Source: Escherichia coli O157:H7 (GTDB lineage Bacteria > Pseudomonadota > Gammaproteobacteria > Enterobacterales > Enterobacteriaceae). Taken from it: 64,000 nt of DNA. The notes under the pieces are model-generated. The model did not search any database, was not told the DNA's origin, and saw only the letters and a program-made list of their open reading frames with translations. The position numbers and the translations under genes were made by a program. The stretch lies in the NCBI RefSeq assembly GCF_013167455.1, contig NZ_CP038328.1; one strand, given 5' to 3'. Below are positions 44,329 to 45,093 of the stretch, piece after piece. Position 1 is the first letter of the stretch, and each line of letters begins with the position of its first letter.

Positions 44329-44360
44329 CCGGCAGGACGGAGGGATTAGTGTCCCGCCGG
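44329..44360 (-). terminator. Intrinsic terminator immediately downstream of the extra ORF (44371..45093)
   Basis: ccggcaggac-ggagggattagt-gtcccgccgg stem (one G-U pair) followed on the minus-strand transcript by ACUUUUCU; the same 8-mer also precedes the hairpin. Confidence 0.5.
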
Positions 44361-44370
44361 AGAAAAGTGG

Positions 44371-45093
44371 TTAATCCTGCAACGCATAGGTTACGGTCGT
44401 GACTACGCGTACCGTTTTATTAATCGCCGTAGGATCATCTTCATCACTGCCACTGGCAAAGATCTGGAATACGCCTTGTGAGGCATCGCTAATTGACCCC
44501 ACCTGGCTACCTGAGTCCGTTGCAAATTGTAGTGCGGCGTTGCGTGCATCTTTGGTGGCGGCAGCAATCATCTCAGCGCGCAGTGCGCCAATACCATTAA
44601 AGCGATAGGCGACTTTGCTCTCAGCGATAGCGCCATCCGTAGCGACTTGCAGTTCGTTTAATTTCGCGACGACTTTTTCGACAGCAGCAACATTATGGGT
44701 TTTTATCGTCACTGACCCGTCTGCGTTATAGCGTGGCATTGTGGGATCATCTTTCAGATAAAAGGAATCTGTTCGCTTGCTTGTCCATTGGCCCAGAATT
44801 ATCTCTTTCTCGTTAATCCCCTGAGCATTGAGTTCGGCAACAATTTTTTTCTGCGCTTCTTCCAGTTTCGGGAACAGTTCGCCGGGAACATTACCCTTAA
44901 AGTTAATCGCAATTGTTAATTCCGCCGTATCTGCGCGAACTTCTTTTTCAGAAAGCCCGCGCACATTGACATAACGGTTGTTGGTTTTTAAATGTTTAAC
45001 ACCATCGCCAACAAAATAACCACAGGCGCTAATCCCCAGTCCGAGGACGATAGCGGCAATTAAAGAGGGGGCCTTGTTCACTGATGACTCCAT
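44371..45093 (-). CDS. Hypothetical SIMPL/DUF541-like lipoprotein; gene not remembered at this position in the E. coli K-12 reference gene order
   Basis: Uninterrupted ORF. Candidate starts are ATG at 45093 (MESSVNK...) or GTG at 45081 preceded by GGAG with a 6-nt spacer (MNKAPSLIAAIVLGLGISA-C). Signal peptide with lipobox-like ISAC; N- and C-terminal beta-strand motifs (VNVRGLSEKEVRADTAELTIAINF, KTVRVVTTVTYAL) resemble SIMPL-domain proteins; enteric-like codon usage. ORF track shows a longer 270-aa version from GTG at 45183. Confidence 0.6.
   Translation of the reverse strand: MESSVNKAPSLIAAIVLGLGISACGYFVGDGVKHLKTNNRYVNVRGLSEKEVRADTAELTIAINFKGNVPGELFPKLEEAQKKIVAELNAQGINEKEIILGQWTSKRTDSFYLKDDPTMPRYNADGSVTIKTHNVAAVEKVVAKLNELQVATDGAIAESKVAYRFNGIGALRAEMIAAATKDARNAALQFATDSGSQVGSISDASQGVFQIFASGSDEDDPTAINKTVRVVTTVTYALQD

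What the first reader, a model, noticed from the sequence alone, without database searches (positions are those of the whole stretch)
44329..45093. Extra lipoprotein gene with SIMPL/DUF541-like fold inserted between sppA and ansA
Every other gene in the window follows the E. coli K-12 order I remember, in which sppA is immediately followed by ansA. Here a ~240-codon minus-strand ORF with its own terminator sits between them, and the sppA-ansA gap is 957 bp. The protein has a lipoprotein signal peptide (MNKAPSLIAAIVLGLGISA-C) and strand motifs resembling SIMPL-domain proteins (the family of E. coli YggE and Brucella BP26). From memory of MG1655 coordinates for the gapA and gdhA starts (about 1,862,771 and 1,842,371, unverified), the two starts are 21,177 bp apart here against 20,400 bp in the reference. 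That 777-bp excess equals the ORF (723 bp) plus about 54 bp carrying the terminator. Codon usage looks enteric, so this may be a strain-specific accessory gene or a native gene lost from K-12 rather than foreign DNA. Nothing about its function can be read beyond a predicted exported, membrane-anchored location.
Basis: partly seen in the sequence, partly recalled or inferred. Interest (0 to 1): 0.8.

Follow-up and report, generated by a model that had tools for sequence, protein, structure and literature searches.

The report
Known SIMPL envelope gene, deleted in K-12
The extra gene between sppA and ansA is a real, already annotated E. coli O157:H7 gene (ECs2473/Z2800) for a small membrane-anchored SIMPL-domain protein of unknown function; it is an old resident of this site that K-12 and most other E. 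coli have lost, not an insertion.

Summary
The window is E. coli O157:H7. A 236-codon minus-strand gene (44371-45081, GTG start) lies in a 957-bp sppA-ansA gap, against 166 bp in K-12. It has a full-length Pfam SIMPL match (E 4e-18), a confident SIMPL-fold model and a strong terminator hairpin.

"Inserted" is wrong. The same sppA-SIMPL-ansA order occurs in E. albertii, E. fergusonii, E. whittamii, two unnamed Escherichia species and a rare Citrobacter freundii-complex contig. dS resembles the neighbours and dN/dS is 0.03-0.12. There are no mobile-element marks. K-12 carries an old deletion allele: 4481 of 5426 complete E. coli genomes have it and 943 have the gene. Both alleles occur in B2 and non-B2 backgrounds.

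"Lipoprotein" is only partly supported. ISAC-Cys20 fits the lipobox rule, but only 2 of 143 family representatives do. The family normally has an uncleaved N-terminal hydrophobic helix with invariant glycines. Closest solved relatives are the C. jejuni SIMPL-like protein (7C50, 10AM), then BP26. It is not a YggE orthologue.

RefSeq already names it. Molecular function remains unknown. Interest is low.

The parts
44371..45081 (-). Coding sequence of the SIMPL-domain protein (236 aa, GTG start, TAA stop); equals ECs_2473 / WP_001030441.1
   Evidence: ORF list and sequence; RefSeq annotation at 100% identity; start conserved in orthologues; dN/dS 0.03-0.115
45088..45091 (-). Shine-Dalgarno GGAG, 6-nt spacer before the GTG start
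   Evidence: Read from the sequence; AAGGAG/ATGGAG conserved in Escherichia orthologues
45007..45072 (-). Codons 4-25: N-terminal hydrophobic segment APSLIAAIVLGLGISACGYFVG. It acts as a signal peptide or a membrane anchor. G16, G21 and G25 are invariant in the family.
   Evidence: Alignment A2; AF2 helix 4-29 at low pLDDT; 19-residue hydrophobicity of 2.1
45022..45024 (-). Cys20 codon of the candidate lipobox I-S-A-C
   Evidence: Fits the PROSITE PS51257-type rule. The Cys is found only in the Escherichia/Citrobacter clade, and E. fergusonii has V at -1.
44386..44970 (-). SIMPL (PF04402) domain, residues 38-232
   Evidence: Pfam E 4.1e-18, model positions 1-205 of 205; AF2 pLDDT about 90; Foldseek to 7C50 E 1.9e-16 and to 4HVZ E 1.4e-11
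44319..44361 (-). Predicted intrinsic terminator of the gene: 11-bp stem with a 12-nt loop (44328-44361), then a U-rich tail (44319-44327)
   Evidence: RNA fold dG -21.2 kcal/mol, z -6.76, 0 of 200 shuffles as good. Orthologues have hairpins of different sequence plus a T tail at the same place.
45160..45184 (-). Hairpin downstream of sppA. In this allele no U tract follows it on the sppA strand, so read-through from sppA into the SIMPL gene is possible.
   Evidence: Fold dG -17.8 kcal/mol. K-12 and E. fergusonii have a T run after the same hairpin; O157, E. albertii and E. whittamii do not.
45117..45149 (-). Conserved upstream block GGACT-N22-TACATT; a possible promoter (a -10-like CTACATT) or regulator site. 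This is inferred only.
   Evidence: Alignment of seven orthologous upstream regions. The sigma-70 scan found nothing at its threshold.
44326..45159 (.). Segment that distinguishes the gene-bearing allele from the K-12-type empty allele: 834 bp here against about 50 bp of unalignable sequence in K-12
   Evidence: Pairwise alignments; the same empty allele in CFT073

Best explanation
This is ECs2473/Z2800, a vertically inherited Escherichia gene that K-12 lacks.

Evolution:
- The gene has sat between sppA and ansA since before the Escherichia species diverged, and at least one Citrobacter lineage also carries it there.
- It is kept under purifying selection in O157:H7, O145, ST131 and about 17% of complete E. 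coli genomes.
- K-12 and most other E. coli carry a single old deletion allele. That allele removed about 0.83 kb and left about 50 bp of unalignable sequence.

Product (architecture shown, details inferred):
- The protein has 236 aa: a short N-terminal tail, one hydrophobic helix, and a two-lobed SIMPL domain.
- The helix most likely targets the protein to the Sec pathway, leaving the SIMPL domain on the periplasmic side, held close to a membrane.
- In the wider family the helix is kept as an uncleaved anchor.
- In the Escherichia/Citrobacter clade a Cys has arisen inside the helix, giving a lipobox (ISAC). The protein may instead be cut and lipid-anchored at Cys20. Gly at +2 would then send it to the outer membrane.
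- By analogy with BP26 (reported as a 16-mer ring assembly; from my own knowledge, not checked here), and given the invariant GxxxG-type glycines in the helix, it probably works as a homo-oligomeric, non-enzymatic envelope protein. It is dispensable under most conditions.
- Transcription probably comes partly by read-through from sppA (the sppA hairpin has no U tract here) and ends at the gene's own terminator.

Shown: identity, position, ancestry, selection, fold, family architecture. Inferred: topology, lipidation, oligomer, promoter, physiological role.
For: Identity:
- 100% DNA identity to O157:H7 genomes, annotated 'SIMPL domain-containing protein' or 'putative lipoprotein' ECs_2473.

Ancestry:
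- The order sppA-SIMPL-ansA is found in E. fergusonii and E. albertii.
- It is also found in E. whittamii and two unnamed Escherichia species.
- It is found in contig L087, whose SppA is 97-98% identical to C. freundii-complex SppA.
- It is found in a more distant enterobacterial contig, L090.
- dS is similar to sppA, ansA and pncA, and dN/dS is 0.03-0.115.
- O157 and ST131 differ at about 16 of 711 nt (97.8% identity) but only 4 aa.
- There are no flanking repeats, IS elements or tRNA genes, and GC is 48%.

Alleles:
- 943 genomes carry the gene and 4481 carry the 166-bp empty allele, which accounts for 5424 of 5426.
- The empty alleles of CFT073 and K-12 are 97% identical.
- ST131 flanks match CFT073 and O157 flanks match K-12.

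Fold and family:
- Pfam SIMPL E 4e-18.
- AF2 mean pLDDT 84.9.
- Foldseek hits to 7C50 and 4HVZ.
- phmmer hits to 10AM_A (E 1.6e-27, full length) and 7C50.

Architecture:
- 138 of 143 family representatives have a hydrophobic N-terminal segment, and only 2 have a lipobox.
- G16, G21 and G25 are invariant.

Expression:
- ECs2473 was 11.65-fold up in lettuce cell-wall polysaccharide extract (PMC4940412).
- A Z2800 phosphotyrosine peptide was detected in EHEC (PMC3681748).

Terminator and sppA hairpin.
Against: - No experiment bears on function, location, lipidation or oligomeric state of this protein.
- There is no conserved gene neighbour across 73 distant loci to lean on.
- In 132 of 143 family representatives, the stretch just after the hydrophobic helix carries more K+R than the stretch before it (means 3.45 and 1.34). 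By the positive-inside rule this leans towards a cytoplasmic SIMPL domain, against the assumed periplasmic location.
- The reported phosphotyrosine at Y37 would also be easier to explain on the cytoplasmic side.
- No sigma-70 promoter passed the scan.
- The phylogroup distribution rests on a handful of named strains, not a typed phylogeny.
Confidence: 0.6

Rival explanations
1. One reading: a strain-specific accessory lipoprotein gene inserted between sppA and ansA in O157:H7, possibly acquired horizontally.
For: - Absent from K-12 and from 4481 of 5426 complete genomes.
- GC3 is somewhat lower than the neighbours, 46% against 52-56%.
- Outside Enterobacteriaceae the closest relatives are only 46-53% identical and come from unrelated phyla.
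- A lipobox pattern is present.
Against: - The gene has the same position and orientation in at least five other Escherichia species and in a Citrobacter contig.
- Its dS tracks the neighbouring core genes.
- There are no repeats, integrase, IS or tRNA.
- The empty allele keeps about 50 bp that aligns to nothing in the gene-bearing allele, so it is not a clean empty site.
- Usual Citrobacter genomes have different, independent empty gaps.
Confidence: 0.05
2. The protein is an uncleaved, signal-anchored inner-membrane protein in E. coli too. On this reading Cys20 is simply a residue of the transmembrane helix and is never lipidated.
For: - Family default: 138 of 143 representatives have the helix and only 2 have a lipobox.
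- G21, G25 and G27, just after the Cys, are conserved across the family as part of the hydrophobic or juxtamembrane segment.
- AF2 draws one continuous helix over residues 4-29.
- E. fergusonii has V at -1, which breaks the lipobox rule.
- PDB 10AM holds the full-length C. jejuni relative including this segment.
Against: - The Cys is kept in every Escherichia orthologue and in the Citrobacter one, although dS is saturated and neighbouring helix residues vary.
- ISAC with K3 and a 16-residue h-region is a textbook lipobox context.
- UniRef and the Sakai annotation call it a lipoprotein; these are predictions only.
Confidence: 0.35
3. Inverted topology: the N-terminus faces out and the SIMPL domain is cytoplasmic, tethered to the inner face of the membrane.
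For: - The charge bias after the helix, in 132 of 143 representatives.
- Phosphotyrosine at Y37 of Z2800 (PMC3681748); the known bacterial tyrosine kinases act in the cytoplasm (established knowledge).
- The mammalian SIMPL protein is cytosolic (my own knowledge).
Against: - BP26 and YggE are periplasmic (established knowledge).
- The relative in 10AM is named 'Periplasmic protein'; this may only be a genome-annotation label.
- The N-terminal tails usually carry a K or R.
- The 15-residue window after the helix includes conserved domain residues (R36 and the K/R of strand 1), so the charge count may not reflect a loop.
- A conserved lipobox Cys in Escherichia makes sense only with the C-terminus outside.
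Confidence: 0.1
4. The gene is a decaying remnant on its way to loss and has no current function.
For: It has been lost from most E. coli and most Citrobacter. It evolves faster than sppA and ansA.
Against: - dN/dS is 0.03-0.115 over all comparisons.
- The ORF is intact and has the same length in all six Escherichia sequences compared. It matches at full length in all 943 genomes, and every one of the about 60 listed is annotated as a gene.
- There is evidence of a transcript and of a peptide.
Confidence: 0.03

Closest known systems
Campylobacter jejuni SIMPL-like protein (PDB 7C50/7C51; full-length relative in PDB 10AM, 'Periplasmic protein', 9 chains)
   Same: - Same subfamily. phmmer E 1.6e-27 (10AM) and 6.4e-26 (7C50); about 30% identity; Foldseek E 1.9e-16 with TM 0.76 on the target.
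- Same length and the same layout: a short tail, a hydrophobic N-terminal helix, then the SIMPL domain. The alignment runs from residue 9 to the end.
   Different: - The C. jejuni protein has no Cys or lipobox in the helix.
- I could not find the paper behind 10AM, so its assembly state and context are unknown to me.
- No function is known for either protein.
Brucella BP26 / Omp28 (PDB 4HVZ)
   Same: Same Pfam family and the same two-lobed fold (Foldseek E 1.4e-11; profile E 3.9e-6). It is an exported envelope protein. Its reported ring-shaped 16-mer is the model for the oligomer I infer (from my own knowledge).
   Different: - Only 17% identity, TM about 0.5, rmsd 7.8 A.
- BP26 has a cleavable signal peptide rather than a conserved hydrophobic anchor.
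- No oligomer has been shown for the E. coli protein.
E. coli YggE (oxidative stress defense protein, NCBIfam NF008299)
   Same: Both match Pfam SIMPL. Both are small, stand-alone envelope proteins of E. coli.
   Different: - The equivalog model gives 18.9 bits against a curated cut-off of 249, so this is a distant paralogue, not an orthologue.
- YggE is in K-12; this gene is not.
- The oxidative-stress phenotype of YggE cannot be transferred.
Mammalian SIMPL / IRAK1BP1
   Same: It gives the Pfam family its name; the shared feature is the domain.
   Different: It is a cytosolic signalling adaptor in animals. There is no membrane anchor and no functional parallel can be drawn.

Membership tests
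Pfam SIMPL / DUF541 (PF04402) | Significant match to the family HMM over most of its length | tested here: met
   E 4.1e-18, 66.8 bits, model positions 1-205 of 205. RefSeq gives the same name.
Pfam SIMPL / DUF541 (PF04402) | Two-lobed alpha/beta SIMPL fold as in the solved members | tested here: met
   AF2 model with mean pLDDT 84.9. The two top Foldseek PDB hits are 7C50 (E 1.9e-16) and 4HVZ (E 1.4e-11), and the next hits are about 7 orders of magnitude weaker.
YggE orthologues (NCBIfam NF008299 equivalog) | Score above the curated whole-protein cut-off | tested here: not met
   18.9 bits against a cut-off of 249
Bacterial lipoproteins (Lgt/LspA substrates) | Lipobox [LVI][ASTVI][GAS]C with the Cys at position 15-35, a K or R in the first 7 residues, and an uncharged h-region | tested here: met
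   MNK-APSLIAAIVLGLG-ISA-C20 passes a PS51257-type regular expression
Bacterial lipoproteins (Lgt/LspA substrates) | Lipobox conserved among orthologues and relatives | tested here: inconclusive
   The Cys is kept in Escherichia and the Citrobacter contig. E. fergusonii has ITVC, which fails at -1. Closer relatives P0009 and P0010 have G or A at that position. Only 2 of 143 family representatives pass the rule.
Bacterial lipoproteins (Lgt/LspA substrates) | Acylation and LspA cleavage shown experimentally, or predicted by a trained predictor (SignalP 6, LipoP) | not testable with these tools
   No such predictor or experiment was available
Membrane-anchored SIMPL subfamily (C. jejuni 7C50/10AM type) | Full-length similarity that includes the N-terminal hydrophobic helix with conserved glycines, followed by R-x-V-x-V-[KR]-G-L | tested here: met
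   phmmer alignment to 10AM_A covers residues 9-236. G16, G21, G25, R36, V38, V40 and G42 are invariant in A2. 138 of 143 representatives carry the helix.
Genomic island / horizontally inserted cassette | Mobile-element marks (flanking direct repeats, integrase or IS, tRNA target), atypical composition, and absence from sister species at that site | tested here: not met
   There is only one 10-nt inverted repeat, at chance level. GC is 48% against 49.6% for the window. The gene is present at the same site in sister species.
Anti-phage defence or phage proteins | Match to PADLOC or PHROGs models | tested here: not met
   PADLOC gave no hit. The best PHROGs hit has E 0.063.

The most novel reading that the evidence does not exclude
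The sppA-ansA site may hold an ancient presence/absence polymorphism kept in E. coli since before the B2/non-B2 split, and paralleled in Citrobacter.

- Both alleles occur in both deep backgrounds.
- The two copies of each allele differ between backgrounds by about 2-3%, roughly as much as the flanking core genes do.
- That pattern hints at a trade-off, for example an envelope protein that helps in some niches but is a target of phage or immunity in others.
- In parallel, the Escherichia/Citrobacter clade would have converted a normally helix-anchored SIMPL protein into a lipoprotein by gaining one Cys inside the anchor.
Probability: 0.2. Interest if true: 0.4.

Novelty: already known. Interest (0 to 1): 0.2.

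Why it matters
The practical value is small.

- The work corrects a tempting reading ("insertion in the pathogen") to the right one: a loss in the laboratory strain and in most E. coli.
- The lipoprotein label carried by some annotations rests on one clade-specific cysteine in a family that normally keeps an uncleaved membrane helix.
- The SIMPL family is widespread (649 clusters at 50% identity with E <= 1e-10) and has no known molecular function. An E. coli member with natural knock-outs in isogenic-like backgrounds (ST131 against ST73, O157 against K-12) is a convenient genetic handle.
- The family-wide excess of positive charge after the helix leaves the side of the membrane on which the domain sits open to a simple test.

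Tried and rejected
- **Conserved gene neighbourhood.** ORFs within four genes of the SIMPL homologue in 73 distant loci were clustered. Only lineage-limited synteny appeared, for example a 595-aa ORF immediately downstream in 9 loci (the example shown is a Bacteroides locus; not identified). Nothing was shared across phyla.
- **Literature.** Eight searches were made, on the SIMPL domain, DUF541, the locus tags and PDB codes. They gave one microarray table and one phosphoproteome table that mention the gene. They gave nothing on the C. jejuni structures or on 10AM.
- **Defence and phage libraries, and Rfam.** No match.
- **Sigma-70 and terminator pattern scans.** No promoter was found. The scan reported one chance-level terminator-like site on the opposite strand (44532-44547) and missed the gene's own terminator because its loop is long.
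- **SigmaE promoter.** I looked by eye for a sigmaE-type promoter in the conserved GGACT block. The -10 does not fit, so I rejected it.
- **10-nt inverted repeat.** The repeat at the two stop codons (44373-44382 and 45188-45197) was considered as an insertion scar. I rejected it because about 0.8 such pairs are expected by chance in 1.3 kb and it is absent in E. albertii.
- **Clean deletion junction.** I looked for a precise junction between the two alleles. The middle 50 bp of the K-12 gap aligns to nothing convincingly, so the exact event cannot be reconstructed.

Full report
**What is there**

The window is E. coli O157:H7. The 961 bases around the finding are 100% identical to O157:H7 chromosomes such as PV15-279 and Sakai.

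On the minus strand an ORF ends at 44371. RefSeq starts it at the GTG at 45081, giving 236 aa (WP_001030441.1, "SIMPL domain-containing protein"). The Sakai record calls it ECs_2473, "putative lipoprotein".

The GTG is the better start. GGAG lies 7 nt upstream of it. The GTG is kept in every Escherichia orthologue, whereas the ATG at 45093 reads AAG in four of them.

In MG1655 it is 166 bp, so the excess is 791 bp rather than 777.

Downstream of the stop codon lies an 11-bp hairpin (44328-44361; dG -21.2 kcal/mol; z -6.8; none of 200 shuffles as stable). It is followed by ACUUUUCUC. The orthologues in E. albertii, E. fergusonii and two enterobacterial contigs each have a different hairpin plus T-rich tail at the same place, which supports a real terminator.

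**What the protein is**

- Pfam SIMPL (PF04402) matches at E 4.1e-18 over the whole model.
- An AlphaFold model built on 32 homologues has mean pLDDT 84.9. It shows a low-confidence N-terminal helix (residues 4-29) and a confident alpha/beta domain.
- The two best Foldseek matches in the PDB are the C. jejuni SIMPL-like protein 7C50 (E 1.9e-16, 30% identity, TM 0.76 on the target) and Brucella BP26 4HVZ (E 1.4e-11). Everything else is far weaker.
- By sequence, the closest solved relatives are 10AM_A ("Periplasmic protein", 231 aa, 9 chains, aligned from residue 9 to the end, E 1.6e-27) and 7C50.
- The protein is not an orthologue of E. coli YggE. The NCBIfam equivalog scores 18.9 bits against a cut-off of 249.
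- PADLOC, PHROGs and Rfam give nothing.

**Lipoprotein or membrane helix**

The E. coli N-terminus (MNK-APSLIAAIVLGLG-ISA-C20) passes a PROSITE PS51257-type lipobox rule. The Cys, however, is confined to the Escherichia/Citrobacter clade.

- E. fergusonii has ITVC, which fails the rule at position -1.
- The next relatives have G or A at the Cys position.
- Of 143 full-length representatives of 50%-identity clusters, only 2 pass the rule, while 138 have a strongly hydrophobic N-terminal segment.
- G16, G21 and G25 are invariant and G27 nearly so. This gives a GxxxG-type pattern that runs through and beyond the Cys.

The family default is therefore an uncleaved hydrophobic anchor. Lipidation in E. 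coli is possible: the Cys is conserved across saturated dS. It is not established.

One family-wide feature remains unexplained. The 15 residues after the helix carry more K+R than the residues before it in 132 of 143 representatives (means 3.45 and 1.34). By the positive-inside rule this points the wrong way for a periplasmic domain. The count includes conserved residues of the first strand, so it may not reflect a loop.

**Insertion or loss**

The order sppA-SIMPL-ansA, with the same orientation, is found in:

- E. fergusonii (70% aa identity) and E. albertii (86-87%);
- E. whittamii and two unnamed Escherichia species (93-97%);
- contig L087, whose SppA is 97-98% identical to C. freundii-complex proteins (SIMPL 68%);
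- a more distant enterobacterial contig, L090 (SppA 76-80%, SIMPL 66%).

Synonymous divergence of the SIMPL gene tracks that of sppA, ansA and pncA. dN/dS is 0.03-0.115.

O157 and ST131 differ at about 16 of 711 nt (97.8% identity) but only 4 amino acids. GC is 48%, against 49.6% for the window.

There are no flanking direct repeats, IS elements or tRNA genes. The one 10-nt inverted repeat is at chance level. The gene is therefore an old resident, and K-12 has lost it.

Ordinary C. freundii and C. koseri have different short gaps of 55 and 127 bp. These also lack the conserved ACGTATATACT block upstream of ansA, so they are independent losses.

**The two alleles in E. coli**

Of 5426 complete genomes, 943 carry the gene. 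Of these, 347 are at >=99% identity; the ones listed are O157:H7 and O145. The other 596 are at 95-99%; nearly all of those listed are at 97.8% and many are named ST131.

A further 4481 genomes carry the 166-bp empty allele. Together the two alleles account for 5424 genomes.

The alleles share sequence up to the sppA hairpin (window 45160) and again from about 44325 downwards. Between these points the 834 bp here correspond to about 50 bp in K-12 that align to nothing convincingly.

CFT073 (B2, ST73) has the empty allele, 97% identical to K-12's. ST131 (also B2) has the gene. ST131's flanks match CFT073 at 0-4 mismatches per 300 bp, and O157's flanks match K-12.

Both alleles thus sit in both deep backgrounds. 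The two copies of each allele differ by about 2-3%, much like the flanking genes. This suggests an old polymorphism moved or kept by recombination. It rests on four genomes and needs a typed phylogeny.

**Expression and regulation**

A Sakai microarray study lists ECs2473 as absent from MG1655 and 11.65-fold induced in lettuce cell-wall polysaccharide extract (PMC4940412).

An EHEC phosphoproteome lists Z2800 with phosphotyrosine at Y68 (PMC3681748). Y68 equals Y37 of the 236-aa protein if EDL933 annotates the 267-aa form that starts at MLSATLL. This is my arithmetic from the ORF; I did not check the EDL933 record.

The hairpin after sppA (45160-45184) has no U tract on the sppA strand in this allele. 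K-12 and E. fergusonii do have one. Read-through from sppA is therefore plausible.

A block GGACT-N22-TACATT (45117-45149) is conserved upstream of the gene and could hold a weak -10. This is inference only, and the sigma-70 scan found nothing.

**Function**

No conserved neighbour exists across 73 distant loci, and the literature I could reach has no functional study of this subfamily.

The best-supported picture is a small envelope protein tethered to a membrane by its N-terminus. It is probably oligomeric, like the ring-forming BP26 (my own knowledge), and is not an enzyme. It is dispensable under most conditions, since 83% of E. coli do without it. The YggE oxidative-stress phenotype should not be transferred to it.

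**Verdict**

The SIMPL call is correct. "Lost from K-12" is the right alternative and "inserted" is wrong. The lipoprotein call is unproven.

The gene is already annotated and has been mentioned as an O157-versus-K-12 difference, so novelty is low. The residual points of interest are the trans-lineage presence/absence pattern, the clade-specific lipobox, and the charge bias that leaves the topology of the whole subfamily open.

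Noticed in passing
window 45160-45184: In the gene-bearing E. coli, E. albertii and E. whittamii alleles the sppA terminator hairpin is not followed by a U tract on the sppA strand. 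K-12 (empty allele) and E. fergusonii have a T run right after the same hairpin. The empty allele thus keeps a feature that the gene-bearing E. coli alleles lack.
   Followed up: partly
window 45117-45149: A block GGACT-N22-(C)TACATT upstream of the SIMPL gene is conserved from E. coli to E. fergusonii and partly in the Citrobacter contig. It may be a promoter or a regulator site. It does not fit sigmaE.
   Followed up: partly
window 44371-45183 (minus strand): The open frame extends upstream to a 270-codon ORF. The published pTyr site Z2800 Y68 equals Y37 of the 236-aa protein only if EDL933 annotates a 267-aa form starting at MLSATLL. That older annotation is therefore probably too long.
   Followed up: partly
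PDB 10AM (external): A PDB entry with 9 chains of a full-length 231-aa 'Periplasmic protein' nearly identical to the C. jejuni SIMPL-like protein 7C50. It did not appear in the Foldseek result against the PDB library (entries to April 2026), and no paper could be found. It may show how this subfamily assembles.
   Followed up: partly
family-wide (proteins P0255-P0399): In 132 of 143 representatives the flank after the N-terminal hydrophobic helix has more K+R than the flank before it. This is unexpected for a domain assumed to be periplasmic.
   Followed up: partly
window 50956-52059: A 367-codon ORF between topB and gdhA; I take it to be ynjI from my memory of the K-12 gene order, not verified. 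It is present here, but the whole 1.3-kb segment (window 50864-52174) is missing from the ST131 strain CU568-3, where topB and gdhA are about 75 bp apart.
   Followed up: partly
window 8100-14057: About 6 kb here has no counterpart in CFT073 apart from 170 bp. CFT073 annotates only pseudogene fragments of a LysR regulator and a tartrate dehydrogenase at that place.
   Followed up: no
L004 7544-8101 and L005 7544-8125 (E. albertii): E. albertii has an extra 185-193-aa ORF with no Pfam hit, plus about 0.9 kb, between pncA and ydjE. In the window these two genes are only about 90 bp apart.
   Followed up: no
L003 (E. fergusonii): In E. fergusonii pncA is followed directly by yeaC/msrB/gapA. The ydjE-ydjL block present in the window is absent there.
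   Followed up: no
Two records labelled as plasmids in the complete-genome set carry the sppA-ansA intergenic sequence. They are probably mislabelled chromosomal pieces or large chromids.
   Followed up: no
window 44373-44382 and 45188-45197: A perfect 10-nt inverted repeat (AATCCTGCAA / TTGCAGGATT) sits next to the stop codons of the SIMPL gene and of sppA. About 0.8 such pairs are expected by chance in 1.3 kb, and it is not conserved in E. albertii.
   Followed up: yes
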